The notes beneath the pieces are model-generated. The model was not told where the DNA came from. It saw nothing but the letters and a program-made list of their open reading frames with translations, and made no database searches. Below are positions 3,992-23,916 of a DNA stretch of 64,000 nt, piece after piece. The DNA is from Parcubacteria group bacterium GW2011_GWA2_42_14 (GTDB lineage: Bacteria > Patescibacteriota > Minisyncoccia > Sungbacterales > GWA2-42-14): contig LCCV01000005.1 of NCBI GenBank assembly GCA_000998135.1, forward strand, positions 157-64,156, in the 5' to 3' direction. Position 1 is the stretch's first letter. The number at the start of each line of letters is the position of its first letter. The translations under genes and the position numbers were made by a program.

Positions 3992-4429
3992 TTAATTGAG
4001 GGCCTTTTTAATTTTCTTAATAACGTCTTCCGGATACTTTTTTATCCCGTGTTCCCAAACAATAAGAGGTTTCCATCCGAAGTGCTTAATTTTTCGCAAA
4101 ACGGCTATATCCCTCTTTTTATTCCCGTTTATTTTCTCTCGCCAAAATTTTACATTGGTTTTAGGAATTGATCTATGTAGCTTACATCCGTGCCAAAAAC
4201 ACCCATGAACAAAAATCACAACCCGCTGCTTCGGAAAAATAAAATCGGGACGAACATTGAATATTTTTTGATGACGCCGCCAATGAGAAATCCCTTCTTT
4301 GCGAAAAAATCTTACGAGATTTAATTCGGTTGTTACATTACCGCTGCTATGTATAGCCGCCATATTCCGTGAACGTTGTTTGATATTTATTCGATCAACC
4401 ATGAATAGTTTTGATAATATTTTTTGCAA
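3992..4429 (-). CDS. vsr: Very-short-patch-repair endonuclease Vsr
   Basis: RSRNMAAI, RPDFIF and FVHGCFWHGC motifs match Vsr (E. coli has RSKNMRAI and FTHGCFWHHH). Overlaps the upstream dcm by 35 nt, as in classic dcm-vsr pairs. Confidence 0.9.
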   Translation of the reverse strand: MQKILSKLFMVDRINIKQRSRNMAAIHSSGNVTTELNLVRFFRKEGISHWRRHQKIFNVRPDFIFPKQRVVIFVHGCFWHGCKLHRSIPKTNVKFWREKINGNKKRDIAVLRKIKHFGWKPLIVWEHGIKKYPEDVIKKIKKALN

Positions 4430-5408
4430 TTGCCTCGATTACGGACACCGCAACACTGTTACCAAGCTGTTTCATTTTCTGAGAATAAGATAGATTGCCG
4501 GGAAAAATAAAATTTGACGGAAAACCCATCATTGTTTTTGCTTCTTCAACCGTTAATACATGCGGTTTATTGTTAACCAAATACGTATCCCAATTTCGTC
4601 TGTCCCTAAACCAAGACCCATCAGGATTCTTTCTGAAAGGCGATTTTCTTCCCCCGACGCGTATCGTTGACCCTATTATAGCAGGCCATCTTTTTCCAAA
4701 AATCTGTCTTAGGGTTACACCCCGCGGAGTCGTCGAGGATGGAAACCTAAAACTATTGGCCTTTCTTAAATCCTTTCTAAATGCGACAAGATAAAATCTT
4801 GGTCGATGAGTGGGCAGTCCGAAAGCGCTTGCCCTCAAAATTTCCCAATTAAAACCCCTTTCAGGCCTTACATCGTAACCGGCACCATCCAACTTATCCA
4901 GGATTACAACGAGCGTTTTATTGTCGTTGTGACTGACGATATTTCTTACGTTTTCCAAAAAAATAACCTTTGGTTTTCGCGCCCTAACTATTCTTTCTAT
5001 ATCATTAAACATTGTCCCTCTTACATCATCAAACCCCTTTTGTTTTCCAACCTGACTAAACGGCTGACATGGAAAACCGGCGCAAAGAATATCGAAGTTC
5101 GGAATAATTTCCCCAATATTTCTTTTCCAAATATATTTAGGTTCGTTTGTATCGGTGCGAGTTATTTGCTTAATATCCTTCCAAAAGAACGATTCTCTCT
5201 CGTCATCTATAAATAAGGTCGGGTCGACTTTTTTGAAATAATTTTTATAAGTTTCTTTGGCACATTTATTAAATTCATTCACAAAAACACACTTTCCGCC
5301 AAGCCTATGAAGAGCTAAATGAAAACCGCCTATTCCGGCAAATAAGTCGATAAAAGTGAATTTTGATTTTTTAGCACCCATTTCTCTATGTATGTTTAAC
5401 CTTAACAT
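4395..5408 (-). CDS. dcm: DNA cytosine-5 methyltransferase (Dcm-type m5C MTase)
   Basis: Motif I FIDLFAGIGGF, motif IV GFPCQPFS and motif VI ENV are present. Confidence 0.9.
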   Translation of the reverse strand: MLRLNIHREMGAKKSKFTFIDLFAGIGGFHLALHRLGGKCVFVNEFNKCAKETYKNYFKKVDPTLFIDDERESFFWKDIKQITRTDTNEPKYIWKRNIGEIIPNFDILCAGFPCQPFSQVGKQKGFDDVRGTMFNDIERIVRARKPKVIFLENVRNIVSHNDNKTLVVILDKLDGAGYDVRPERGFNWEILRASAFGLPTHRPRFYLVAFRKDLRKANSFRFPSSTTPRGVTLRQIFGKRWPAIIGSTIRVGGRKSPFRKNPDGSWFRDRRNWDTYLVNNKPHVLTVEEAKTMMGFPSNFIFPGNLSYSQKMKQLGNSVAVSVIEAIAKNIIKTIHG

Positions 5409-6645: not shown

Positions 6646-7295
6646 AGGTTTTTATGACGACGGGAAACACAAAGCCCCGCGCCAGCTAGGTCTTGCGACC
6701 CCATACCGGTTTCCCGATATGGCCCATCAAAGAGTTGCTGAACGCGGGGTTCAGTATCTTCATCGGGTCTTTATGCCATGCCCGGCGGTATGAACCGAAG
6801 GGTTTAGGACAATTAAATTGTTATCGTTATAACGACTATATCAAAAATGCCCGTTTCAATCAATTTTCTGTCCATTTCATAGCATAAATACTTGCTTTTG
6901 CGAAGGATCGAGTTATCAACAGCGGCTATTTGCAAACTCTTGATTTATTCAAAATAATTTGCTATTATGAAAATAATTGAATAGAAATCTTAGCGGCTGT
7001 CTCTAGTCTATAAAGATTATCAGATAGCTGTGTCGGCTAGACCGCCTAAGGTTTTATCAGCAATGCTATTTTGTATTGCTGTTGAAACTTTGGGCGGTTT
7101 TTATTTTTCGCCCCTTCGCCGCCACGGTCAACGGCGAAATGTAACCAAAGGAGAATATTGCTTATGAAATAAAACGCGTGCCATGAGTACGCAAAACGAA
7201 AATACTAAAAAACTCAGATATTAATAACGGAAACGGCTTATCCTAGAAAGGTTCAGTATAGAAACTTTCTTTGGTGAGCCGTTCCCTAAATTAAG

Positions 7296-8642
7296 ATGTT
7301 AGAAATTGATAGTGAAAAACAGCTTAAAATTACTTATGTTCCGGTGGATTCCCTCCAGCCTTCCGAGTACAATCCGCGCTCATGGAGCAAAGATGCCGCC
7401 GGGCAATTGAAAGAGAGTATAACCAGATATGGAATGGTGGACCCCATTTTGGTAAACTCCGCACCCGAAAGGAACGGCGTACTTATCGGAGGGCATTTCC
7501 GATGGGCAATGGCAAAGGAACTTGGGATAACAGAAGTACCAGTTGTCTATCTTAATATTCCTGACCTTGAAAAAGAGAAGGAACTTAATTTAAGGCTGAA
7601 CCGCAATCAAGGCGAATGGAATCTTGAACTTCTCGCTGAATTTGATGAAAAATTGCTCGCCGATATAGGTTTTAGTTCCGAAGAGATTGATGAAATATTT
7701 GGAATTGAGGAGAATCCGGAAATGTTTGATCTGGAAAAGGAATTAAAAAAACTGTCGATTGATAAAGTTGACGTGCAGAAAGGCGACGTCTATAAAATCG
7801 GAGAACATCGCGTCATGTGCGGAGATTCCACGATTGAAACGGATATGCTCAAACTCATGGCTGGAGAAAAAGCCGATATGTGCTTCACAGACCCGCCATA
7901 TTTACTCTCATATTTGACCGGAAAGAAGCGACATGGAAAAGCAACTGAAGGATTCGGGTTAAAACGCGACCGCCGGTATCTAGAAACAGATGTTTTGCCG
8001 GATAACTTCACGGAACTCTGGATGACAAATATTGCCAAGATTCAAAAACCGGATTTTTCAATCATCGTGTTTGAGAATCCTAAGAATTTGCGGACTATCT
8101 GGAACGAACTTGAAAAGTATTGGCGCTGGCGCAATACAATCATCTGGCACTTACCAAATCGCGTCTCCGGTTTCTCAGCAAAATACAAGTTCTTTAACAA
8201 ACACGATATTGCCCTCGTCGGCACCGACGGGAATCCATCATTAAATTTGGAACCGGAATCGGATGAATTATTTCAAAACGAGTATGAGAACGCATTATAC
8301 GCAACTTCCGGAAAACCGCACTGGGAGGGCTATGAGAAAGGAAAAAAGATCTGCCCTACGGATTTTATTGAGCACATTGCGGCTGATGAAAAATCCAGCG
8401 GCCAAGGAATAATATTCGGCACGAAGCCGATTGAACTCCTTATCCCATACATCAAGGTTCTCACGAAACGCGGAGATCTTATAGTAGAACCTTTCGGCGG
8501 ATCGGGATCTATGCTGGTTGCGGCAGAAAAGTTGAAACGACGGTGCTTTCTGATGGAAAAAAGTCCGATCTACACAGCCGTCATATTAAACCGAGTTGAA
8601 AAAATTATTGGCATAAAAGGAGAAAAAATCAATGAGGGATAA
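7296..8642 (+). CDS. ParB-like nuclease domain fused to an N6-adenine/N4-cytosine DNA methyltransferase (beta-class)
   Basis: N-terminal ParB/Srx signature (YNPRSW ... GGHFRWAMAKELG). Motif IV DPPY (CFTDPPYLL) precedes motif I (VEPFGGSGS) at the C-terminus. Confidence 0.85.
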   Translation: MLEIDSEKQLKITYVPVDSLQPSEYNPRSWSKDAAGQLKESITRYGMVDPILVNSAPERNGVLIGGHFRWAMAKELGITEVPVVYLNIPDLEKEKELNLRLNRNQGEWNLELLAEFDEKLLADIGFSSEEIDEIFGIEENPEMFDLEKELKKLSIDKVDVQKGDVYKIGEHRVMCGDSTIETDMLKLMAGEKADMCFTDPPYLLSYLTGKKRHGKATEGFGLKRDRRYLETDVLPDNFTELWMTNIAKIQKPDFSIIVFENPKNLRTIWNELEKYWRWRNTIIWHLPNRVSGFSAKYKFFNKHDIALVGTDGNPSLNLEPESDELFQNEYENALYATSGKPHWEGYEKGKKICPTDFIEHIAADEKSSGQGIIFGTKPIELLIPYIKVLTKRGDLIVEPFGGSGSMLVAAEKLKRRCFLMEKSPIYTAVILNRVEKIIGIKGEKINEG

Positions 8643-9201
8643 AATAGAGGAAAAGCTAAAAATACTTGAAACGCTGAAAACAACGCCGGTGATTAGTGTG
8701 GCGTGCGCTAAGGCGGGCTTGGCGCGCGCCACAATCTATCGCTGGCTTAACGACGATATTGACTTCGAAAAACAAGTTCAACAGGCCATGAGATCCGGCG
8801 CTAAGAATATTAACGACTTGGCGTATGCAAAACTGATCCAGAAAATCAACGAAGGCAGTCTGGGAGCCACTACTTTTTACCTCTCACACCGGCATCCTTT
8901 ATTCAAAAAGAAAGAAAAATTTAAAGTGGAAGTGACACAGAAAAATTCTCCGATCTATGACATTCCCGAAAGTGCGTTTAACGAAGTTTTAATCAGTAAA
9001 CTCCCGAAAAAACTCAGAAAGCAAGTAGTAAGAAAAGCAATAAGGATACACGAGATAGTGCGACAAGCCATCGAGAAAGCGCGCAAGGAGCGCCCGTACT
9101 TGGGACCCAAAAACCCGTCATCAAAGTATTGTCTACAAGATACGCTGCCGTGGGGGTTAATTCTTAAGAGCGTTCTTGAAGAAGAAAAGGGGAAGAAATA
9201 G
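8632..9201 (+). CDS. HTH DNA-binding protein (terminase-small-subunit-like or transposase-HTH-like)
   Basis: PVISVACAKAGLARATIYRWLNDD reads as a helix-turn-helix. The start overlaps the MTase stop by 11 nt. Confidence 0.5.
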   Translation: MRDKIEEKLKILETLKTTPVISVACAKAGLARATIYRWLNDDIDFEKQVQQAMRSGAKNINDLAYAKLIQKINEGSLGATTFYLSHRHPLFKKKEKFKVEVTQKNSPIYDIPESAFNEVLISKLPKKLRKQVVRKAIRIHEIVRQAIEKARKERPYLGPKNPSSKYCLQDTLPWGLILKSVLEEEKGKK

Positions 9202-9303
9202 TTATCAACTGCTTGGTTTGAGGGGGTCTGGACTCACAGGAGGGGTTGCGTCATCAATGTCCTTGTCGAAAGGTTATTAAATAACTAAGTAAAACAAGGG
9301 CTT

Positions 9304-10647
9304 ATGAAACAATCAACAACAACCCCTCCTGACGCCTTGGGGAAAATGACGGCAGAAATAACTGTCATGGCGCCGCAGATGCGCTACTGTCTTTATGCGC
9401 GGAAGAGTACCGCCGAGGAGGACCGGCAGGCTCTTTCCATAGAATCGCAGGTAAAAGAAATGCTTGCGATGGCGGAACGCGAACGACTTCACGTGGTCGA
9501 AGTGAAGCGCGAATCGCACTCATCTAAAGAAGCTGGCCAGCGGCCAATCTTCAATCAGATGATCGCCGAGATCAAAGAGGAAAAGTACAACGGGGTGCTC
9601 GCGTGGGCACCAGACCGGCTTTCGAGAAATGCAGGAGACCTGGGTTCGGTGGTCGATCTGATGGACCAGAAGTTACTGGTTGAGATCAGAACTTACGGCC
9701 AGCGATTTACAAATAACCCGAACGAGAAATTTCTTTTGATGATTCTCGGCTCGCAGGCAAAATTGGAAAACGATCAAAAGGGCGTGAACGTAAAACGCGG
9801 GCTAAGAGCCAGATGCGAGATGGGTCTATGGCCTGCTCCGGCACCAACCGGATACCTCAACGACAAGAGCCGGGACAAAAAATGCCATATCATTATAGAT
9901 CCAAAACGCGGACCGGTTATAAAGCAAATGTATGAAAAAGTTGCGAATGAAAGTTGGAGCGGTAAACGGCTGTATCACTGGCTAAAAGATACAAAATTTA
10001 CATCCGTCTACGGCAAACCACTAACATTGAGTAATGTATATTTGATATTAAAAAATACCTTATATTATGGAGTGTTCGAATATCCGAAAAAAAGCGGAAA
10101 CTTGTACACCGGCATCCATCAGCCGCTTATAACAAAAGAGATTTTTGAAAAAGTGCAAACGCAGATCAAGAGAAGCAAGATCTTAAGCCCTTATGGTGGC
10201 AAGGAATTCGCCTTCACGCGGCTTATCTCATGCGGAAATTGCGGAACGACGCTGGGCGCGGATGAGAAATTGAAGAAACTCAAAAACGGGCACATAAATA
10301 GACATGTGTATTATAGCTGTACGAAACGATGGTCAAGAGATTGCAAAAGCGGATTCATCAACGAGCCCGAATTAATTGGACAGCTTATGGCCATCATCGA
10401 CACGGTTAAACTCGACAAAACCGGCATTAGGGAAAAACTTGATGGCGAGATCAGTCGCTATCGAAAATTCCAATCTGGTGTTCTCGGCATCAAAGAGATA
10501 CACGACCAAAAATCCAAGGACTTGGACATCCGGAATTATGCGAAATACATCTTCAAAGAAGGAGCAATCTATGAAAAACGCGAACTGCTATCGTGCTTGA
10601 GAAGCAAACTGATATTCAAAGATAAAAAACTTTCGCTCGAAGCATAA
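9304..10647 (+). CDS. Large serine recombinase (resolvase/invertase N-domain, recombinase domain, zinc ribbon)
   Basis: YARKSTAEEDRQALSIESQ matches the catalytic motif of serine recombinases. A CGNCGTT ... YYSC zinc-ribbon-like region lies in the C-terminal half. Confidence 0.85.
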   Translation: MKQSTTTPPDALGKMTAEITVMAPQMRYCLYARKSTAEEDRQALSIESQVKEMLAMAERERLHVVEVKRESHSSKEAGQRPIFNQMIAEIKEEKYNGVLAWAPDRLSRNAGDLGSVVDLMDQKLLVEIRTYGQRFTNNPNEKFLLMILGSQAKLENDQKGVNVKRGLRARCEMGLWPAPAPTGYLNDKSRDKKCHIIIDPKRGPVIKQMYEKVANESWSGKRLYHWLKDTKFTSVYGKPLTLSNVYLILKNTLYYGVFEYPKKSGNLYTGIHQPLITKEIFEKVQTQIKRSKILSPYGGKEFAFTRLISCGNCGTTLGADEKLKKLKNGHINRHVYYSCTKRWSRDCKSGFINEPELIGQLMAIIDTVKLDKTGIREKLDGEISRYRKFQSGVLGIKEIHDQKSKDLDIRNYAKYIFKEGAIYEKRELLSCLRSKLIFKDKKLSLEA

Positions 10648-10694: not shown

Positions 10695-13600
10695 CTACTT
10701 TTTATGAGGGGGCAAAACATTAGTATAAGTTTTTCCAACCAATTTGCCATCTACTTTCATCCTAAACGCACCACCCATTTCCAATCTCCCAAGGAAACCT
10801 TCTCCACTACCCATAGTTCCTAGTAAGAGTTTTTCTCCAATAACCGCCCAAATTATCTCGTAGCCATTCTTTTTTAGAAACTCAATCAAGGGTTTCTTTT
10901 TGATAATCAACGCTCCCGAACCTGCATCAGCCACTGAAGGGTCTTGTGCCACCACCTCACCTTTTTTATTGATGAATTTACCAGACTCTTTGCTCTGGTG
11001 AATATTCATCCCCTTAATTAACTCCTTTGCTGGTATGTGAATGGCTAACCCCTCTTCTAGTGAGCAATCAAAGCCGCTTCCTTCCCAATGGTATTCTTCT
11101 GTAGTCTTAATTACATTAAATGGCGTAATCTTTCGTTCCTTATCCTCAACTTTTATCCAACGCTTTTTATTGGAGACATTGTACTCGTTTTGGTATGCAA
11201 TAGAGTTTGGAATTTCTCTTAGAAAGAGACTACGCAACTCCAGCGGGTCAGGCATCCATCTACCCATAAAATCTTGTTTCTTTGCCCAGGCGAACATCCT
11301 ATTAACTTCTTTTTTCTTAACAATGTAACTACGCAATATATACCAAACATCACGCCTGATTTTATCGAATTTCTCCTCACCAGGAACGGGAGGCTGTTCC
11401 CACCGTACATAACCGTCCAAAAGCAACCATCCGCCTTTCGATTTAATTTCTATTAGATTTTTTTGAGTTGGTAAATCATTTTTAACTTTTGTCCATTGAG
11501 TATGGTTAAGTGAGGGACGCCAATGCTTATAAACAGCACTAATCCACCAGGGTTTTTTTGCCGATGAATCAATCGGGGTCTTATGCAAAAGACAAGATGG
11601 GTCAATGTCCCGCTCACACATTTGCCAAGTCCCCTGGTAGGGTTCAAAGGTGTCTCTCCAAGCACCTCTATAGACAAAGTTATCAGCAATTCTTCCCAAT
11701 ACCTCGTGGAAAGCTATCCATTGATACTTTTTACCAATACGCTCGCTTTTATGAGCATCTCTACCCATTTCTCTAACTGTTGAATCATATTTGGCAAATA
11801 GCTTCGGTCTCCAACCTAATTGGACGATTCTTTGAAATATGAGTCGTTGAATCTCTGCATCATTCAAGTCATCACTACCTTTAGGATTTTCACGATAAGG
11901 GAGAACACCTTTCTTGTATAGTTTTTGTTGCACATCGCTTAAAGTCTCAATAAAAACTTTCTCAAGATTTTTAACAAAAGTTTCCGCTTCTTTCAGCTGC
12001 TCTTTCATGAACTTATTTTCTGGTAATTGGTCTCCTTCTCTTCTTGGAAAATCTGTCATCCTTAATTGCCAGTCAGTGGATTGACGCATACTTTCAATTT
12101 TTTTCCACCTCTTTTTTTCTATTCGATTTAGACTGGTATTAAATTCCGCATCTATTTCCTTAATGGTTTTCTTTCTTTTTCCATTTTTTGATAATCTCAA
12201 GTTGCACCAATGGTTTAGAGTTGAACCCACAACATAATTCCCGAAGTCAGCAATACCTCCTTCATTGTTATACATCAATGAATACCAGATAGCGCCGTAG
12301 TCTCCATTTTTCCTTTTGCGACCACTTCCTTTTGGATACTTTTTCTTTAAATCGGCTAGAGTTGGCACTACTGTTGGAAATGAACTCCCGTATGGTGGTC
12401 TGATTCTTCGTATATCAATCTTATTTTTTAGTGTAGCATCCTGGGAAATCGCAAGCTCCATAATGCCGCGCGCATAGTCTCGTAATAAAATATGAGTGGG
12501 CGGCTTTCTGTCTTTGAAAATATTATTGTATGTGTAAAGTGCAAGCGTAGAAACATCCTCTCTTTTGTTTTCAGGCTGCAAAACACAACCGTAAGCTGCT
12601 GCATAAAGTCGTTCTTGTATGTAGGGGTCATCAACTCCTTTAAAGTCCTCTAACACCTTCAAAAGCACGGGGATTCTCCCGTTCAGCATTGATACCAACG
12701 CTTTCGTTGCTCTATCCCTCAAGAATCTATTTGAACTCGCTAAAAACCAAGCCAAAGTAACGCCAGCTAATCTCAACGAATCATTTTGTATCGTGCTTTT
12801 GTCTCCTCCGTCCCACGACCAAGTAAGAAGACGATTTATTGCGCCCTCATCACCATATCGGCTATTTATAAAAGGCAACCAAAACGCATCGCGTTGCGGC
12901 ATTTTCTTTTTTGCCAAATGCCTATGAAGTAACTTTGCATTTAACGGGTGGCTGGGTATGGCAGAAACAGTGATTAAGGTCTCCAAAATTTTTTCGTTGC
13001 CACCGTAATAAGGCAAGATGTATTTATTCAAATAATTTAAAATCCGTCTCTGGTTGATGTATTTTGTTTTCCCTTTTTTTAGCGATAAATCTCTCCAAAT
13101 GAGGCTTTCTAAAAAACTATCTTTCGCAATCTCTTGATAACGAAACTTATTTGGAGCCACATAAACTAATTCTCTACCGCGCAATCTCTCTGGCACTTGG
13201 ATGGATAAAGCCTCAATAAGTCCGCGGTTCCATTGTTCGCCGATAATATTGCCCAACCTTGTTCCTTTTTTTAACGACTGTTTTGGAAGAGTTGTGTTTA
13301 AATGTTTTGTTAAAAGATTCCTTACAATTAGATGGTCGCTGAATTTCTGATATGGAAATCTATAATCAAAGCCGATAATCTTATACTTTTTATAACGAGG
13401 AACTTTAGTTATTAACCAATATTTCTCTAAAAACCACAACACCTTTTTTCCTTTAGATGGGAACTGTTTTGCGGCAATTGATACCGCTTGCTTTTCTGGT
13501 ATCCTGTCAGTTCCATTTTCGCCCATATAAAGTGCGAGTTCTTTTATAGTTCCGTTCCAAATTCTTCTAACGCTTTCTCCTGATTCTCCTAATTTTTTTA

Positions 13601-14837
13601 GAACTGCATCGCCTTGAGTAATAACATATTTCTCGAAGATGTGAGTAAATCCTCGATGCCCCTTTATTGGCTCTGGTGATTTGGCAGATGCCTCACAAAA
13701 AATTTTCAAAAATAGAGGTATACGAAATTCTGGAAATAGGATAGGTACTTCGGGAAGGGGCAGTTTATATTCTGTAAAAAATTTTGTTAAAGCCTCCCAT
13801 TCGTGAGTGGCAAAACCCTCGTGTTCGACTCTTACATAACTTTTTAGTACAGATAGCGGGAGTTCACTCTGCTCAAAACCAGAACGAATACTCAAAATTA
13901 CACCAAGATTTTTGTACCTACTAATTAAATTAAATTGTTCCCAATGAACACCGAATACCTGGCTTTCATTTACGGCATCAACCACAATAATTGCCCTCGT
14001 GCGTTTTGCACCAGCGTAATCATTTAGAGCTTGGATGAATGTTTTATTTGATGTATTTATTGCTAACAGATTTTTAGCCGTACCCCACGGATTTTTAGAG
14101 TTATTAAATTCTTCACCAAGAAATATGAAAGTGGGTAACCCGTGGCTTATCCTGTATTTTGATAGGTCGCATAGAAAATGAGTCTTTCCTGAACCAGCTA
14201 TGCCGTTTAAAAGAACGCGGGGATTATTGGCAGCCAAAGCTGTATTACTTTTTGAGAAATCTATTAAGGAACTTAAAACACTGCCAATTTTGTATAAGTG
14301 ATGTTTTTCGTTTCTAAACTTTTCGTCCTCAATATATGTTATTCTCTCTCCCTTTTTCGGCTTGTTAATCGGATTTTCTTGTTCTTTTTTCTTTCTATTC
14401 TCCTCTTCGTTTTCTCGTAATAAGTGTGTACATTTATAGGCGGCTTCTTTTGCATTGTTGCTTATCGAATATATTTTCTTAAAATCTATTTTCGCTACGC
14501 CGCTATGCGGAATTTTCAATAAAAAGTTCACCACTTCTAGAAAGTGGCGTTTTACTTTTTCAAATTCTTTTGGAGCTACCTTGCTCACTTCTTCGTCTTT
14601 GATGCTCCTAAGATTTTTGATTATCTCATTAGCTGGGCTTTTTAATTCCTCATAAAACTTCGCTGTTCTTCCGAGACCATCGAATACTGAAGCAATGCTT
14701 ACCTCGACATTGAGTTTTGGAGTATATCTAGCTCCAGCAAGAGAGATAGCAACAGAAAGTCGTTTCTCTTGTGTGCTTTTATAGAGTTTTTTTTGTGAGA
14801 TTTTTTTCATAGTTTTATTATACAGCGCGCTCGACAA
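10695..14837 (-). CDS. Large (1380 aa) P-loop NTPase, STAND/NACHT-like; candidate defence NTPase
   Basis: Walker A GIAGSGKTH at about aa 210 and Walker B AIIVVDAVNES. The roughly 850-aa C-terminal region has no recognised motif. Confidence 0.55.
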   Translation of the reverse strand: MSSALYNKTMKKISQKKLYKSTQEKRLSVAISLAGARYTPKLNVEVSIASVFDGLGRTAKFYEELKSPANEIIKNLRSIKDEEVSKVAPKEFEKVKRHFLEVVNFLLKIPHSGVAKIDFKKIYSISNNAKEAAYKCTHLLRENEEENRKKKEQENPINKPKKGERITYIEDEKFRNEKHHLYKIGSVLSSLIDFSKSNTALAANNPRVLLNGIAGSGKTHFLCDLSKYRISHGLPTFIFLGEEFNNSKNPWGTAKNLLAINTSNKTFIQALNDYAGAKRTRAIIVVDAVNESQVFGVHWEQFNLISRYKNLGVILSIRSGFEQSELPLSVLKSYVRVEHEGFATHEWEALTKFFTEYKLPLPEVPILFPEFRIPLFLKIFCEASAKSPEPIKGHRGFTHIFEKYVITQGDAVLKKLGESGESVRRIWNGTIKELALYMGENGTDRIPEKQAVSIAAKQFPSKGKKVLWFLEKYWLITKVPRYKKYKIIGFDYRFPYQKFSDHLIVRNLLTKHLNTTLPKQSLKKGTRLGNIIGEQWNRGLIEALSIQVPERLRGRELVYVAPNKFRYQEIAKDSFLESLIWRDLSLKKGKTKYINQRRILNYLNKYILPYYGGNEKILETLITVSAIPSHPLNAKLLHRHLAKKKMPQRDAFWLPFINSRYGDEGAINRLLTWSWDGGDKSTIQNDSLRLAGVTLAWFLASSNRFLRDRATKALVSMLNGRIPVLLKVLEDFKGVDDPYIQERLYAAAYGCVLQPENKREDVSTLALYTYNNIFKDRKPPTHILLRDYARGIMELAISQDATLKNKIDIRRIRPPYGSSFPTVVPTLADLKKKYPKGSGRKRKNGDYGAIWYSLMYNNEGGIADFGNYVVGSTLNHWCNLRLSKNGKRKKTIKEIDAEFNTSLNRIEKKRWKKIESMRQSTDWQLRMTDFPRREGDQLPENKFMKEQLKEAETFVKNLEKVFIETLSDVQQKLYKKGVLPYRENPKGSDDLNDAEIQRLIFQRIVQLGWRPKLFAKYDSTVREMGRDAHKSERIGKKYQWIAFHEVLGRIADNFVYRGAWRDTFEPYQGTWQMCERDIDPSCLLHKTPIDSSAKKPWWISAVYKHWRPSLNHTQWTKVKNDLPTQKNLIEIKSKGGWLLLDGYVRWEQPPVPGEEKFDKIRRDVWYILRSYIVKKKEVNRMFAWAKKQDFMGRWMPDPLELRSLFLREIPNSIAYQNEYNVSNKKRWIKVEDKERKITPFNVIKTTEEYHWEGSGFDCSLEEGLAIHIPAKELIKGMNIHQSKESGKFINKKGEVVAQDPSVADAGSGALIIKKKPLIEFLKKNGYEIIWAVIGEKLLLGTMGSGEGFLGRLEMGGAFRMKVDGKLVGKTYTNVLPPHKK

Positions 14838-14898
14838 ATATCCAATAAACCTTATTCACAAAAACGAAAAGCCGCTGATTTCTCAGCGGACTTTTCGT

Positions 14899-14954
14899 TC
14901 TTGAATACGGCGCTCCCTCCTTCGCTAAAGCTACGGCGGGCACAGCAGCCGGTA
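14899..14954. repeat. Direct repeat copy 1 (TCTTGAATACGGCGCTCC ... GGGCACAGCAGCCGGTA) after a hairpin
   Basis: 18/18 and 17/17 identical blocks shared with 16204-16257. The interior is partly similar. Confidence 0.8.
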
Positions 14955-15093
14955 CTGCAGCTTTATCGGGGTTATTCACTAAATACTCAATTTTTAAAGG
15001 GTTACTTTTTGACCGATCTTTTTGATTTGACTTTTAAATCGCAATCTCATATAATCTAATATATCAACTATATAAGATTCGATAAGCTAAATT

Positions 15094-16146
15094 ATGAACC
15101 GGCTTAATACACGTATCAAAAAACTCCCCTACTCTATACTTGATCTTATCAATAAGATCGATGAACTGAAAGGCCAATGGGTGGGAGGTGCTAAATTAAA
15201 TCCACAAGCGCTCGGGCGGCTCAAGCATTCAACCTTGATTACATCAACGGGTGCTTCGACACGCATCGAGGGCGCACAGCTTTCCGATGAGGATGTGGAA
15301 AAACTGATGCGAGGACTTTCCATGCAAAAATTCGCCGACCGCGACAAGCAGGAGGCGAAAGGATATTACGAGTTGCTTGAAAATGTTTTTGCCGCATGGC
15401 AGAAGATACCGTTTTCTGAAAGTACCATCAAGCATCTGCACCGTGAACTGCTGAAATACGTAAAAAAAGATGATACCCATCGCGGAGAATATAAAAAGAT
15501 GGAAAACAAGGTAGTAATGCTCGATGAGGCCGGTAAACCGACTGCAACCCTTTTTGAGACAACGCCGACATATCTTACGCCAAAGGAAATGTTGGAACTT
15601 AGCGAATGGACCCGCGATGCACTGGCTATACGCGAATTCCATCCTCTGCTTGTCATCGGAAATTTTATCGTAGAGTTTCTGAACATCCACCCATTTCAGG
15701 ATGGCAACGGGCGGCTTTCCCGAATTCTGACAAATCTTCTCTTGCTCCAGCACGGATACACATATATGCCGTATGTCTCTCATGAAAAACTTATTGAAGA
15801 TAATAAGGCAGACTACTATGTAGTACTACGCAGAAGCCAGAAAACGTTTAAGACCGATTCCGAAAATGTGTCTCCCTGGATGGAGTTCTTCTTGAACATT
15901 CTTTTGTCACAGTCAAAACTCGCGATTGAGCTGCTTTCGCAAGAAAACATAGAACGCCTTCTTTCGCCGAAACAGCTTGCTGTATGGCAATACGTTGAAG
16001 GCGTTATTGAGGCAACACCGGGAAAAATCTCTAAAGCCACAAAGGTCGCCCGCCCAACGGTTTCCCAAGCGCTTGACGCACTCCTGCGCCTTAAAAAAGT
16101 GGAACGGATCGGGCAGGGGCGGACAACGAGATATAGAAAGATCTGA
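15094..16146 (+). CDS. fic: Fic/Doc-family protein (AMPylase-type) with C-terminal winged HTH
   Basis: Canonical Fic motif HPFQDGNGRLSR. Confidence 0.9.
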   Translation: MNRLNTRIKKLPYSILDLINKIDELKGQWVGGAKLNPQALGRLKHSTLITSTGASTRIEGAQLSDEDVEKLMRGLSMQKFADRDKQEAKGYYELLENVFAAWQKIPFSESTIKHLHRELLKYVKKDDTHRGEYKKMENKVVMLDEAGKPTATLFETTPTYLTPKEMLELSEWTRDALAIREFHPLLVIGNFIVEFLNIHPFQDGNGRLSRILTNLLLLQHGYTYMPYVSHEKLIEDNKADYYVVLRRSQKTFKTDSENVSPWMEFFLNILLSQSKLAIELLSQENIERLLSPKQLAVWQYVEGVIEATPGKISKATKVARPTVSQALDALLRLKKVERIGQGRTTRYRKI

Positions 16147-16177
16147 AGTCTTTCCCGGCAGATGCGGAAACAAAAAT

Positions 16178-16202
16178 TCACCCGGAAATGGGTGAATTTT
16201 TG
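16178..16202 (+). terminator. Rho-independent terminator of fic
   Basis: TCACCCggaaatGGGTGA followed by ATTTTT. Confidence 0.6.
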
Positions 16203-16203
16203 C

Positions 16204-16257
16204 TCTTGAATACGGCGCTCCTCCGCACAAGGCTGCGGACGGGCACAGCAGCCGGTA
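16204..16257. repeat. Direct repeat copy 2
   Basis: See copy 1. Lies immediately after the fic terminator. Confidence 0.8.
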
Positions 16258-16408
16258 TGACGTGGACTGTAACGAGTTTTCTTTGTAACTCCCCTGAGGC
16301 CCGAAACACTAGCTTTTTTAATGAGCGGTTCGAATCCGTGACGGGTCGAACTTTGACTCATTCAAAAAAGTGACGTGTTATGGGTCTCGGTAGGGGGTCG
16401 CAAGGACA

Positions 16409-16479
16409 CTGGGGGACAGGGATTCGAACCCCGATACCTGCCTCCAAAGGGCAGTGTCCTACCGTTAGACGATCCCCCA
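16409..16479 (-). tRNA. tRNA-Gln (anticodon TTG)
   Basis: The reverse complement reads TGGGGGATCGTCTAACGGTAGGACACTGCCCTTTGGAGGCAGGTATCGGGGTTCGAATCCCTGTCCCCCAG. It has a 7-bp acceptor stem, the anticodon loop CTTTGGA and the T-loop GTTCGAATC. CCA is not encoded. Confidence 0.8.
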
Positions 16480-16484
16480 ATAAC

Positions 16485-21495: not shown

Positions 21496-23916
21496 TTAAG
21501 AATGCTTTTTAATAATTTCCTCCTCCACTTCTTCTCTTGGCTTGCCGTATTTAAGACGCGACAGTTCTTTGATTTTTTCCACGTTTTCGCGGAAAATCTG
21601 TCCAGACGGATATGTTTTCATGCTGAATGGCTCCGAAGTTTTGCCGTTTATAAGAAGTTTAGCATAACAGTTAAAATTATCAATGTTCAATAAGTCATGA
21701 CCGCTGAATACCGGTTGAAATTGTTTTTCCATAAATTCAGCGTCATCCGAACCGATGCGGAAAGCAATCATGGAGCCGACATTGCCGAAAACGGCTTTTT
21801 TAATATTTTCTTCAAGTTGCCCGATAAATTGATGCGAAATAACCAAATCCAAGCGATATTTTCTGGCTTCGGAAAGAATGGTGGCGATGGAAGGGGTCGT
21901 AACATTCTGAAATTCATCAAGATATAAATAAAAATCGCTGCGAGATTCTTCCGGAACATCGGTCCTGGACAAAGAAGCGATAAGCAATTTTCCAACAAGA
22001 ATCAGGCCCAAAAGCGATGAGTTTAATTCTCCCAATCTGCCCTTGGAAAGATTAATCAAAAGTATTTTTTTAGAATCCATTACTTCCCTGAAATTGAATG
22101 CGGATTTTTCCTGGACAATTATCGGACGCATAATTTCATTTGCCAGAAATGTGTCAAACTTGGAAGTAACATAAGGAACAATATTGGCCAGAGCCGATTC
22201 TCCTCCGGCTTTTTCCGCGATCTGCTCCCAAAAAGTTTTTACGATTATATTGGAGGTGCGCGATAATTTAAGTTCCCTGAAACTTGAATCGGACAAAACG
22301 CGTGATATTTCCATAAGCGTGTTTCCGCTTTCAGGATTATCCATTACCAAAAGGGTTGAATTCCTGAAATACTGCTCAAACATCGGACCCATGGATTCAG
22401 GAATGGCGCCGTATAATTTCTGAAAAATGCTGAAAAGTTCATTTACCACCATTGTTTTTTGTTCGGGGAATCGCTGGTCATACTCAAGCATGTTCAATCC
22501 AAGAGGCCGGGCAGTATCGGCAGGGTTAAAATAAATAACGTCGTCCAGACGATTTTCCGGGATATAGCCCAAAATTTCTTCAACCGTATCGCCGTGCGGG
22601 TCAATAAAGCAAGTTCCTTCACCTGATTCAATATCCTGCCTAATCATATTTTTCAGAAGGACCGATTTTCCGGTGCCTGTCTGGCCTACTGTATAAATAT
22701 GACGCCGGCGGTCTTCTTTTTGCAATTTTATTTCCGAAGAAATTCCTCTAAAGAAGTTAAATCCGAGAACCATGCCGGAAGAAGGCAAATTGGCCGGTGC
22801 AGACGCTTCTTTGGCCTTAAGAAATTCCACCTTGGGGGTCTCCAGCATAATATTGGGGAAATGAAAAAGACCGGTCATTTCTTCGCTGTTTAAAATCATT
22901 TTTTTTGATTCGTCAAAAACCCGGAAAGAGAATTTGTATATTAATTCCTTAAGGGATGAGCCGCTAACACGGTTTATGGCAAATTCGTTTGATGTCGGGT
23001 CGGCAAATTGAGCCAGGGCGGATTCCAGATTGCGCAAAATTTCCGACGCCCTTTTTTCATCCTTGGCCGACGCAAGCAAACGGATATTGGCCTCAAAAAG
23101 GTTTTTTTGCGTTTTCGCTTCCACCTTTTTTAGCAGTTCTTCTTCTCCCTGGGTCAATTTTTTCATTTTTTTTGCTTCCTCTTGCTGGGGAGAAGGGGGG
23201 GAAATTGTTTCCCGCATCATTTCAAAAAAACCGATGATTTTATTCCTGGGGCCTGACCTTATTTTTGCCCGCCCCTCCTGGACTTCTTTGGCAAAAGAAT
23301 GGATTTTTAATTTAAGGCCTCCGGGAGCGGGCCTGGCAACTATCTGGAAAGAGGCGCCTTCTCCCTCGCGGGCTAATTTGGAAAAAACATTGGTAACGGA
23401 GCGAAGGGGGTCGGTCGATATTTCCCTGTAGGTTTTTACCGGAAAAAAGAATTTACGCATCAGCTTAACTTCCGAAGCCGCCGTAACGCCTTCGGGATTG
23501 AAAATATTATAATCTTTTACCTGTTCAATGGAAGCGGAAGAAAAATTAGCGTGAATTATTTTTTCAAGGGATTCCGCGAACCTTTTGGGAACGGCCGCGT
23601 AAAAAGAAATTTCTTCTCCGATATGAGGCGTGGTAATTTCCAAAGCAAATGCCGGTTTGCCGTAAGCAAACGTATTCCACCAGGAATCATGAACGGACAT
23701 AAGATTGGCGTAAACATTTTCCATTACCGATATTTTTTCGCGGGCATGTTCTTGAGACATCTCTTCTTTTCTTATATCCTTGGGCAGGCGCACCAAAAAA
23801 AGGCGCAAATTTAAAGAGCGCCAGATTTCATCGCGTCTCGTGATTTTTTTAAGCATCCAAAAAAAACCAAAAGCCAGAATTCCGAGTATGATAAAAAAAA
23901 TTGTAATAAAAGTCAT
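21496..23916 (-). CDS. Membrane-anchored FtsK/HerA/VirB4-superfamily ATPase (TraC/VirB4-like)
   Basis: N-terminal TM helix. Walker A TVGQTGTGKSVLL and Walker B YLYLDEFQN in the C-terminal half. Confidence 0.5.
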   Translation of the reverse strand: MTFITIFFIILGILAFGFFWMLKKITRRDEIWRSLNLRLFLVRLPKDIRKEEMSQEHAREKISVMENVYANLMSVHDSWWNTFAYGKPAFALEITTPHIGEEISFYAAVPKRFAESLEKIIHANFSSASIEQVKDYNIFNPEGVTAASEVKLMRKFFFPVKTYREISTDPLRSVTNVFSKLAREGEGASFQIVARPAPGGLKLKIHSFAKEVQEGRAKIRSGPRNKIIGFFEMMRETISPPSPQQEEAKKMKKLTQGEEELLKKVEAKTQKNLFEANIRLLASAKDEKRASEILRNLESALAQFADPTSNEFAINRVSGSSLKELIYKFSFRVFDESKKMILNSEEMTGLFHFPNIMLETPKVEFLKAKEASAPANLPSSGMVLGFNFFRGISSEIKLQKEDRRRHIYTVGQTGTGKSVLLKNMIRQDIESGEGTCFIDPHGDTVEEILGYIPENRLDDVIYFNPADTARPLGLNMLEYDQRFPEQKTMVVNELFSIFQKLYGAIPESMGPMFEQYFRNSTLLVMDNPESGNTLMEISRVLSDSSFRELKLSRTSNIIVKTFWEQIAEKAGGESALANIVPYVTSKFDTFLANEIMRPIIVQEKSAFNFREVMDSKKILLINLSKGRLGELNSSLLGLILVGKLLIASLSRTDVPEESRSDFYLYLDEFQNVTTPSIATILSEARKYRLDLVISHQFIGQLEENIKKAVFGNVGSMIAFRIGSDDAEFMEKQFQPVFSGHDLLNIDNFNCYAKLLINGKTSEPFSMKTYPSGQIFRENVEKIKELSRLKYGKPREEVEEEIIKKHS

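What the first reader, a model, noticed from the sequence alone, without database searches (positions are those of the whole stretch)
14851..16480. About 55-bp direct repeats after terminator hairpins bracket the fic gene, next to tRNA-Gln and a T-loop-like remnant
Copy 1 (14899-14954) and copy 2 (16204-16257) share TCTTGAATACGGCGCTCC and GGGCACAGCAGCCGGTA exactly, with a related interior. Each follows a terminator hairpin (GCCGCTGA...TCAGCGG and CACCCggaaatGGGTG). Together they delimit a 1.3-kb fic cassette whose GC looks slightly higher than its surroundings. About 150 nt further on is tRNA-Gln (minus strand), whose 3' end faces the island. Between them, at about 16325-16345, a plus-oriented GGTTCGAATCC T-loop-like motif occurs without a complete tRNA, which may be a tRNA 3'-end scar. 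The pattern suggests a cassette insertion or integration footprint, or a repeated structured element.
Basis: seen in the sequence. Interest (0 to 1): 0.55.

Follow-up and report, generated by a model that had tools for sequence, protein, structure and literature searches.

The report
Island insertion scars at tRNA-Gln
The two 55-bp repeats around the fic gene are one stem-loop of a larger non-coding unit that sits after tRNA-Gln, duplicated when a defence-gene module inserted at that tRNA; this is a familiar way for genomic islands to grow, seen here in a little-studied bacterial group.

Summary
Both exact blocks occur twice in 64 kb, where about 0.05 matches are expected by chance. Each copy abuts a terminator hairpin, and tRNA-Gln(UUG) lies 150 nt beyond copy 2.

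The 55 bp are only part of the repeat. Seven public contigs of the same organism (Candidatus Sungbacteria) carry 147 bp where the window has 25 bp. With that stretch, the repeated unit on the tRNA strand reads: tRNA 3' end or a decayed copy, a 26-29-nt block, a long palindrome, the 55-nt hairpin, then a terminator.

A distant relative has one such unit after tRNA-Gln, followed by different defence genes. Other relatives have none. Three of their contigs end inside the tRNA-Gln T-loop.

Close fic homologues always have a pseudo-tRNA fragment upstream of their promoter. They lie beside tRNA-Gln or, in one lineage, tRNA-Ser, often with a PrimPol-helicase and a PIF1 helicase but no integrase.

Best reading: tandem accretion of integrase-less defence modules (SoFic-like fic, then Avs2) at tRNA-Gln. 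The role of the unit itself, as RNA trailer or as attachment arm, is unresolved. It is not a genome-wide REP element and matches no Rfam family.

The parts
10695..14837 (-). Avs2-type antiviral STAND NTPase gene, the first gene of the older island segment, downstream (on the minus strand) of copy 1 and its terminator
   Evidence: PADLOC Avs2 models, best 1207 bits over residues 14-1374. No Pfam hit. Promoter-like site on the minus strand at 14844-14817.
14872..14889 (.). Intrinsic-terminator hairpin with T-runs on both strands. On the minus strand it follows copy 1.
   Evidence: Called on both strands. On the plus strand there is no upstream gene for it to terminate.
14899..14954 (-). Repeat copy 1: hairpin D2 of the older unit (E_B). 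It is the only part of E_B kept in this window.
   Evidence: An nhmmer profile of E matches 14954-14860 at profile positions 100-191 only.
14955..14979 (.). 25-bp filler found only in this window. Seven public contigs of the same organism carry 147 bp here (block 1, palindrome D1, pseudo-tRNA-Gln 3' fragment).
15027..15055 (+). fic promoter (TTGACT, 17 nt, TATAAT)
   Evidence: 11 of 12 consensus positions. The region is conserved upstream of fic homologues.
15094..16146 (+). fic gene (SoFic-like Fic domain with a C-terminal winged helix). It is the cargo of the most recent insertion.
   Evidence: Pfam Fic 6.5e-15. PADLOC SoFic 4.2e-42. More than 7800 homologues, about 75% identical across Parcubacteria lineages.
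16171..16202 (.). Bidirectional terminator hairpin (13-bp perfect arms) shared by the convergent fic and tRNA-Gln/E_A transcripts
   Evidence: I4. Folds.
16204..16257 (-). Repeat copy 2: hairpin D2 of the newer unit (E_A)
16275..16382 (-). Long imperfect palindrome D1 of E_A. It carries an extension specific to this copy, which includes the inverted T-arm copy at 16327-16340.
   Evidence: Alignments A1-A3. Folds. The profile matches itself on the opposite strand. Inverted repeat I6.
16383..16407 (-). Block 1 (plus strand GGTCTCGGTAGGGGGTCGCAAGGACA), which directly abuts the tRNA 3' end. It is the base of D1 and is nearly identical in the two units of this organism.
   Evidence: It also abuts the tRNA or pseudo-tRNA ends in L009, L039 and L042.
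16408..16480 (-). tRNA-Gln(UUG), the integration target. It lies 4 nt downstream of the 110-aa gene, so it has no separate promoter space.
   Evidence: ARAGORN. Rfam 60.3 bits. Contigs of relatives end inside its T-loop.

Best explanation
The two 55-bp repeats are the same stem-loop (D2) in two copies of a non-coding unit of about 190-250 bp, called E here. Read on the tRNA strand, E runs in this order: the 3' end of tRNA-Gln(UUG) or a decayed copy of that end; a conserved 26-29-nt block; a long imperfect palindrome (D1); D2; and an intrinsic terminator.

E is the tRNA-proximal end of defence-gene modules that insert in the T-loop/3' part of tRNA genes in Parcubacteria. The ancestral layout was tRNA-Gln, E_B, terminator, then Avs2 and the rest of the island. 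A module carrying a SoFic-like fic gene then inserted at the tRNA. That gene is the remnant of a fic, PrimPol-helicase, PIF1-helicase trio. The module brought its own restored tRNA 3' end, its own E (E_A, copy 2) and a terminator. It pushed the old tRNA end and E_B (copy 1) about 1.4 kb away. Copy 1 in this window later lost its D1/pseudo-tRNA part.

What is shown: the duplication architecture, the pseudo-tRNA, the variable occupancy of the site, and the mobility of fic.

What is inferred:
- The insertions happen by site-specific recombination, catalysed by an integrase supplied in trans, since the module encodes none.
- E is transcribed as the tRNA-Gln 3' trailer.
- The bidirectional terminator of E insulates the tRNA operon from the convergent cargo.
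For: 1. Seven public contigs of the same organism carry 147 bp where the window has 25 bp. With it, copy 1 extends to block 1 plus a fragment resembling the tRNA T-arm and acceptor 3' end, in register with the tRNA-Gln to copy 2 region.
2. L009, a relative with DnaX only 53% identical, has tRNA-Gln, one E (79% identical to copy B over 184 nt), a terminator, and then unrelated cargo: another Fic, a restriction enzyme, a methylase and Vsr.
3. Other relatives (L012, L034, L036) have tRNA-Gln without E and without such cargo.
4. Contigs of three relatives stop inside the tRNA-Gln T-loop.
5. fic homologues of 76-94% identity (L037-L039, L042-L044) all have a pseudo-tRNA plus a conserved arm directly upstream of the fic promoter. 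In L039 about 30 nt of it (block 1 end, acceptor, T-stem) equal the real tRNA-Gln junction of L042.
6. L043 has fic next to an intact tRNA-Gln. L044 has the complete fic, PrimPol-helicase, PIF1 trio next to tRNA-Ser, with its own pseudo-tRNA and no integrase within 5.6 kb.
7. L042 carries three successive tRNA-or-pseudo-tRNA plus block 1 junctions.
8. Fic is about 75% identical across lineages whose DnaX is about 50% identical.
9. The cargo genes are defence genes: SoFic-like and Avs2.
10. An E profile finds copies only at tRNA-Gln or pseudo-tRNA sites in about 320 kb of fetched DNA.
11. The known models of tRNA-seeded island growth and of accretion of integrase-less elements fit this layout (bioRxiv 10.1101/2020.12.28.424599; PMC5704250).
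Against: - No integrase lies inside the fic module. The only recombinase nearby, a large serine recombinase at 9304-10647, belongs to the neighbouring segment and is not linked to these sites by any test.
- The pseudo-tRNA of this organism differs from its own tRNA-Gln in the acceptor strand. Either the event is old or the fragment came in with the module.
- The identical stretch between the two junctions here is block 1, outside the tRNA. The crossover point is therefore not pinned down, and homologous recombination between E copies could give the same picture.
- No excised circle or empty site of this same species was seen.
- Only four diverged full-length E copies are available.
- In the window itself the pseudo-tRNA is absent.
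Confidence: 0.66

Rival explanations
1. E is above all a functional structured RNA. It would be a roughly 190-nt 3' external transcribed spacer made by read-through from tRNA-Gln and released by tRNA processing, acting as a small RNA or as a processing or stability element. The two copies would then be paralogues kept by selection. This is compatible with island carriage and differs only in what E is for.
For: E_A lies between the tRNA and the first terminator, so it must be transcribed. The tRNA starts 4 nt after the upstream gene. The terminator after copy 1 has nothing to stop on the plus strand. Hairpin bases are conserved while tips vary, are swapped or are missing. Ten pairs show changes on both sides, against 4.5 in shuffles and 0-3 in slid controls. 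Folding z-scores range from -5 to -7.7. Nucleotide identity is 79% between genomes whose proteins are 50-70% identical.
Against: There are only 5 sequences, two of them near-identical, and half of the compensatory pairs lie in the terminator. No strand is consistently favoured: copies B and L009 fold better on the tRNA strand, while A and L042 fold better on the opposite strand. A DNA palindrome would behave this way. No Rfam family matches, even at E = 10. The high identity could reflect recent transfer. No expression data are available.
Confidence: 0.3
2. The duplication arose by homologous (Campbell-type) recombination. A circular DNA carrying fic and a copy of the tRNA-end/E region would have crossed over once with the resident E. 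No site-specific integrase would be needed.
For: The homology between the two units spans about 250 bp, far more than a usual att core. The only long identical stretches are block 1 and the D2 flanks. The module has no integrase. L037 carries a fic allele only 89% identical between flanks that are 100% identical, and its copy 1 is a B/A chimera joined at ACGGCG.
Against: The same module sits at tRNA-Ser without a recognisable E. In L039 the junction identity ends in the T-loop, and relatives' contigs break in the T-loop. Both point to a defined crossover site inside the tRNA. The identical blocks are only 18-29 nt long, which is short for RecA-type recombination.
Confidence: 0.15
3. E hairpins are recombination sites used as folded single-stranded DNA, as with integron attC sites or the CTX phage attP. 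The locus would then be a cassette array anchored at tRNA-Gln.
For: The stem bases are conserved with bulged bases, an unpaired spacer and a variable terminal hairpin. A unit brackets each gene set in the window and in L039. Rearrangement breakpoints fall inside D2: the L037 chimera and the short forms in L037, L038 and L042.
Against: Reading the conserved blocks shows no RYYYAAC / GTTRRRY boxes. No IntI or Xer gene was found among the neighbours scanned. fic has its own promoter. There are only two copies, and none lies between the other island genes.
Confidence: 0.07
4. The repeats are a genome-wide REP/BIME-like or MITE-like element that happens to have two copies here, or they are an assembly artefact.
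For: The repeats are hairpin-forming, intergenic and placed next to terminators.
Against: There are two copies in 64 kb, and none elsewhere in about 320 kb of related DNA except at tRNA-Gln or pseudo-tRNA junctions. Both copies appear in independent assemblies from ENA, NCBI, JGI and Logan. Exact-pattern scans of the genome, metagenome and viral collections gave only chance hits in high-GC coding DNA.
Confidence: 0.03

Closest known systems
tRNA-seeded genomic islands built by repeated integration (tycheposon model in Prochlorococcus, bioRxiv 10.1101/2020.12.28.424599; ssrA-specific islands of Dehalococcoides, PMC3146451)
   Same: The islands sit at the 3' end of a tRNA. Partial tRNA copies separate successive elements. 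The newest element lies next to the tRNA, and strain heterogeneity is highest there. The cargo includes defence genes and primase/helicase modules.
   Different: The fic module has no tyrosine or serine recombinase. The repeated unit extends about 190 nt beyond the tRNA as a conserved, hairpin-rich trailer with a terminator. The host is a Parcubacteria (CPR) organism.
CIMEs (cis-mobilizable elements) and tandem accretion with ICEs/IMEs (PMC5704250)
   Same: The elements keep att-type repeats but have no integration or transfer genes, and they stand in tandem at the end of a target gene.
   Different: Mobilisation in cis by a neighbouring element has not been shown here, and no ICE or IME partner was identified.
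Integron gene cassettes with attC sites
   Same: Short gene units are bracketed by imperfect palindromes with conserved bases and variable tips.
   Different: The attC consensus boxes and an IntI gene are absent. The cargo has its own promoter. The anchor is a tRNA gene, and there are only two units.
tRNA 3' external transcribed spacer RNAs (for example 3'ETS-leuZ of E. coli; from my own knowledge, not checked here)
   Same: A structured RNA segment lies between a tRNA and the operon terminator, and is therefore made with the tRNA.
   Different: There is no evidence here that E is stable or acts in trans. E appears to move with islands.
LOOT RNA (Rfam RF03000), present in this window at 6688-6810
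   Same: A 17-nt stretch (CGGUAxGGGGUCGCAAG) is shared with block 1 of E on the opposite strand.
   Different: E does not match the LOOT model even at E = 10. The similarity score of 27-29 is within the range of shuffles, whose maximum is 31.

Membership tests
tRNA-targeting integrative genomic island | Lies directly at the 3' end of a tRNA gene, which stays intact | tested here: met
   tRNA-Gln at 16408-16480 is intact (60.3 bits). fic ends 262 nt from its 3' end. The same holds in L043 and, at tRNA-Ser, in L044.
tRNA-targeting integrative genomic island | Direct repeat of the tRNA 3' part at the far boundary | tested here: met
   It is absent from the window itself. It is present upstream of the fic promoter in L001, L002, L005, L037-L039 and L042-L044. 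It is degenerate in this organism. In L039 about 30 nt are identical to a real tRNA-Gln junction.
tRNA-targeting integrative genomic island | Encodes its own integrase | tested here: not met
   There is no recombinase domain in the window segment between the two units, which holds fic only. There is none in the complete three-gene modules of L039 and L044. The serine recombinase at 9304-10647 lies in the neighbouring segment.
tRNA-targeting integrative genomic island | Site is occupied in some relatives and empty or differently filled in others | tested here: met
   L012-L015, L034 and L036 have no E and no such cargo. L009 has E with other cargo. Contigs break in the T-loop.
CIME (integrase-less element retaining att sites) | Flanked by att-type repeats, with no integration or transfer genes | tested here: met
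   See the rows above. This rests on sequence anatomy only.
CIME (integrase-less element retaining att sites) | Excises or moves with the help of a co-resident element | not testable with these tools
   It needs read-level junction data or experiments.
Integron cassette / attC | R''/R' boxes RYYYAAC ... GTTRRRY at the ends of the palindrome | tested here: not met
   The conserved blocks TCTTGAATACGGCGCTCC and GGGCACAGCAGCCGGTA and their flanks contain no such conserved pair.
Integron cassette / attC | IntI integrase and attI at the head of the array, with promoterless cassettes | tested here: not met
   No tyrosine recombinase was found among the neighbours scanned. fic has an 11/12 sigma-70 promoter.
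REP/BIME-type dispersed repeat | Many copies spread over intergenic regions of the genome | tested here: not met
   There are two copies in 64 kb, and elsewhere only at tRNA or pseudo-tRNA junctions. The whole genome was not available.
Described RNA family (Rfam 15) | Match to a covariance model | tested here: not met
   Only tRNA and LOOT (elsewhere in the window) reach the gathering score. Nothing credible appears in E at E up to 10.
Structured non-coding RNA (general) | Compensatory base changes beyond what phylogeny explains, and a preferred strand | tested here: inconclusive
   Ten double-change pairs against 4.5 in shuffles, but only 5 sequences, and 5 of the pairs lie in the terminator. 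The strand preference is contradictory.
SoFic-type Fic defence gene | Match to the SoFic model and an intact Fic motif HxFx(D/E)GNGRxxR | tested here: met
   PADLOC SoFic 4.2e-42 over residues 46-347. The motif HPFQDGNGRLSR appears in the translation. Defence activity was not tested.

The most novel reading that the evidence does not exclude
E is a new class of structured RNA carried by integrase-less defence modules. By landing behind a tRNA gene, the module borrows the host tRNA promoter to express it. The RNA, or its folded DNA, then takes part in the module's own life cycle, for example in recognising the tRNA T-loop target. Supporting hints: the modules next to tRNA-Gln (this window) and tRNA-Ser (L044) each carry an inverted copy of their target's T-loop 70-90 nt from the tRNA end. 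That would be a way of targeting tRNA genes that does not depend on an element-encoded integrase.
Probability: 0.1. Interest if true: 0.8.

Novelty: new variant of a known kind. Interest (0 to 1): 0.4.

Why it matters
Mobile elements and defence islands of the candidate phyla radiation are poorly charted. This locus shows a tRNA-Gln hotspot where small modules without an integrase (SoFic-like fic, a PrimPol-helicase/PIF1 trio, Avs2, restriction-modification genes) pile up, much as in better-known bacteria.

It also explains why contigs of these genomes often end in that tRNA. The conserved, hairpin-rich unit of about 190 nt that travels with the tRNA end is not in Rfam. It is a concrete candidate for either a new tRNA-linked RNA or an unusually long attachment arm.

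For annotation, the practical lesson is that the 55-bp repeats are island boundaries, not regulatory sites of fic.

Tried and rejected
- Rfam at gathering score and at E up to 10, on the window region, L001 and nine related loci: only tRNA, and LOOT elsewhere in the window.
- Exact-pattern scans for the conserved blocks. Genome contigs gave 1 hit, a Sphingomonas coding region, which is chance. Metagenome contigs gave 17 hits, all high-GC coding DNA, which is chance. Four patterns on viral contigs gave none.
- BLAST of E against phage and plasmid records: nothing.
- A search of viral contigs for fic relatives: none.
- Kinship with LOOT: only 17 nt, within the range of shuffles.
- Strand assignment by folding energy: contradictory between copies.
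- Small proteins encoded in the repeats: the ORFs at 14901-15059 and 16188-16373 share only the nucleotide-identical stretch and then diverge, so they were rejected.
- Further pseudo-tRNA or E copies in the rest of the window or in L009's island: none.
- The far end of the island: synteny with L012 does not resume to the left within the window.
- Literature on the "TOTE" system named by Pfam: nothing found in the library.
Full report
**Observation.** Even with three mismatches allowed they occur nowhere else in the 64-kb window, where 0.06 and 0.02 matches are expected by chance. Between the blocks each copy has a different short hairpin. Each copy touches a G+C-rich hairpin with T-runs, at 14872-14889 and 16171-16202. 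fic is at 15094-16146, with a Pfam Fic match and the motif HPFQDGNGRLSR. tRNA-Gln(UUG) is at 16408-16480 on the minus strand. GC rises to 0.42-0.52 over fic.

**The repeat is longer than 55 bp.** A look-up of the exact Fic protein returned seven public contigs of the same organism: Candidatus Sungbacteria RIFCSPLOWO2_12_FULL_41, GCA_001820775.1, plus ENA, JGI and Logan assemblies. All are 99.9-100% identical to the window except at 14955-14979. There they carry 147 bp instead of the window's 25 bp. Four of them start inside that stretch, and the 25-bp filler occurs in none of them.

With the 147 bp in place, copy 1 continues through a mid-block and a 26-29-nt block (GGTCTCGGTAGGGGTCGCAAGGACA on the plus strand) into a fragment resembling the T-arm and acceptor 3' strand of a tRNA. 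The same order follows copy 2 up to the real tRNA-Gln.

Read on the tRNA strand, the unit, which I call E, is: tRNA 3' end or pseudo-copy; block 1; a long imperfect palindrome (D1); the 55-nt hairpin (D2); a terminator. On this strand the terminators follow the element instead of preceding it. The terminator next to copy 1 has no plus-strand gene upstream to terminate.

**Relatives.** Homologues of the 110-aa gene that abuts the tRNA gave syntenic loci.
- In L009, whose DnaX is only 53% identical, tRNA-Gln is followed by one E that is 79% identical to copy B over 184 nt, then a terminator. Unrelated cargo follows: a different Fic, a RhuM-Fic protein, a restriction enzyme, a methylase and Vsr.
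- In L012-L015, L034 and L036 the tRNA has an unrelated trailer, no E and no such cargo.
- Contigs L010, L033 and L035 end inside the T-loop of tRNA-Gln. This is what strain-level variation starting at that point would produce.

**fic is mobile and carries a tRNA scar.** More than 7800 proteins match Fic at E below 1e-60. The best hundred are 73-78% identical and come from Kaiser-, Zambryski-, Nomura-, Pacebacteria and others, although DnaX between much closer genomes is about 50% identical.
- Contexts of homologues at 94, 87, 87, 80 and 76% identity (L037/L038, L039, L042, L043, L044) all show a pseudo-tRNA fragment plus a conserved arm ending ...GGTCxTGGCT just upstream of the conserved fic promoter.
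- In L039 about 30 nt (end of block 1, acceptor strand, T-stem, half the T-loop) equal the true tRNA-Gln junction seen in L042. The identity ends in the T-loop.
- L043 has fic and a PrimPol remnant directly beside an intact tRNA-Gln.
- L039 and L044 carry the complete trio: fic, an AEP(PrimPol)-SF2 helicase and a PIF1-type helicase. In L044 the trio sits beside tRNA-Ser(CGA) in a 229-kb contig, with its own pseudo-tRNA. It has no recombinase in 5.6 kb.
- L042 shows three successive tRNA-or-pseudo-tRNA plus block 1 junctions.
- A homologue at 78% identity (L040) lies elsewhere without these features.

**Cargo.** The 1380-aa gene beyond copy 1 is Avs2 (PADLOC 1207 bits), and Fic matches SoFic at 4e-42. 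Further left lie a large serine recombinase, a small-terminase-like HTH protein, a ParB-methylase, a C5 methylase and Vsr. The 3' flank of tRNA-Gln is therefore a defence island.

**Interpretation.** The layout matches the known model in which elements integrate repeatedly at a tRNA. Each newcomer restores the tRNA end and pushes older material, with a partial tRNA, further away (bioRxiv 10.1101/2020.12.28.424599). It also matches the accretion of elements that kept their att sites but lost their integrase, the CIMEs (PMC5704250). E_B resembles the single E of L009, so it is the older resident. E_A came with fic.

Integration by a trans-acting site-specific recombinase at the T-loop is inferred and not shown. 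A single homologous crossover between E copies remains possible. It is supported by the length of the homology and by L037, where a fic allele only 89% identical sits between 100% identical flanks and copy 1 is a B/A chimera.

**What E itself is.** E_A lies between the tRNA and the first terminator, and the tRNA starts 4 nt after the upstream gene. E_A must therefore be transcribed as a trailer.

All four diverged copies fold into D1, D2 and a terminator, with z-scores from -5 to -7.7 on the tRNA strand. The bases of the hairpins are conserved. The tips vary, are exchanged (A versus B), or are missing: the short form ACGGCRCTC|AGCCGG occurs in L037, L038 and L042. On a five-sequence alignment, 10 pairs change on both sides, against 4.5 in shuffles and 0-3 in slid controls, but five of them lie in the terminator.

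The better-folding strand differs between copies, and the E profile matches itself on the opposite strand. A DNA palindrome would do both. No Rfam family matches. I therefore leave the choice open between a functional tRNA-linked RNA and a long attachment arm or insulator, and I rate the RNA reading at about 0.3.

**The T-loop-like motif.** GGTTCGAATCCGTG at 16327-16340 is a 13-of-14 inverted copy of this tRNA's own T-arm (I6). Only 1 of 100 shuffles reaches that length. It forms one arm of an extension of D1 found only in copy 2. L044 has an 11-nt inverted copy of the tRNA-Ser T-loop at a similar distance (2 of 100 shuffles), whereas copy B and L009 have none. The motif is real, but it is not the scar that marks the island boundary. 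Whether it is a relic or part of the module's target recognition cannot be told.

**Rejected.** I rejected a genome-wide REP element, an assembly artefact, integron attC sites, small coding genes and kinship with LOOT. The reasons are in the dedicated fields. Both large DNA collections were scanned once each with exact patterns and gave only chance hits, so the wider distribution of E is unknown.

**Verdict.** The finding is a true integration footprint of a familiar kind, in an unfamiliar host, with an unusually long and structured repeat unit whose own role is unresolved.

Noticed in passing
window 6688-6810 (-): A LOOT RNA (Rfam RF03000, 65.7 bits against a gathering score of 46.4) lies inside the island, between a 382-aa gene and a ParB-methylase gene. 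Its last 17 nt (CGGUAUGGGGUCGCAAG) nearly equal block 1 of E read on the opposite strand. The alignment score is within the range of shuffles.
   Followed up: partly
window 14955-14979: This 25-bp stretch is found in none of the public contigs of the same organism, which all carry 147 bp here. The rest of the region is 99.9-100% identical. It is either a strain-level deletion/replacement or an assembly difference.
   Followed up: partly
window 10695-14837 (-): The 1380-aa protein has no Pfam hit but is a full-length Avs2 antiviral STAND NTPase by PADLOC (1207 bits).
   Followed up: yes
window 7296-10647 (+): A ParB-N/DNA methylase fusion, a small-terminase-like HTH protein and a large serine recombinase stand in a row. 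They look like the remnant of a phage-like element next to Avs2. Their att sites were not located.
   Followed up: no
window 3992-5408 (-); L009 10209-12313: A Vsr endonuclease plus C5 cytosine methylase pair has homologues (49% and 30-33% identity) in the tRNA-Gln island of the distant relative L009. The same kinds of cargo recur at this hotspot.
   Followed up: partly
L010, L033, L035 (contig ends): MAG contigs of three related species stop inside the T-loop of tRNA-Gln (...GGGGTTC...GGGGTTCGAA...CTCTAGGTTC). This suggests population-level variation beginning exactly there.
   Followed up: partly
L037 2061-2130; L037 3439-3505; L038 1379-1445; L042 2384-2410: Hairpin D2 is rearranged in other strains. 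One version is a tandem B-tip plus A-tip chimera joined at ACGGCG. Another is a short form lacking the tip and the GGGCACAGC block, and it occurs in two different organisms.
   Followed up: partly
L044 10001-15161 and 15162-15382; L039 187-5058: A conserved three-gene module (fic, AEP/PrimPol-SF2 helicase of the Pfam 'TOTE conflict system' type, PIF1-like helicase with HTH_40) has no integrase. It sits beside tRNA-Ser in one lineage and, to judge from its flanking pseudo-tRNA-Gln fragment and E start, beside tRNA-Gln in another. L044 has an 11-nt inverted copy of the tRNA-Ser T-loop 90 nt from the tRNA.
   Followed up: partly
window 15119-15091 (-): A promoter-like site (TTGATA, 17 nt, CATAAT; 10 of 12) lies on the minus strand inside the start of fic and points toward copy 1. 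It could drive an independent transcript of the older unit.
   Followed up: no
window 21496-23916 (-): An 806-aa VirD4/TraG-like coupling protein (T4SS-DNA_transf, DUF8128) is conserved in synteny with DnaX in all relatives fetched, so it appears to be a core gene, not island cargo.
   Followed up: no
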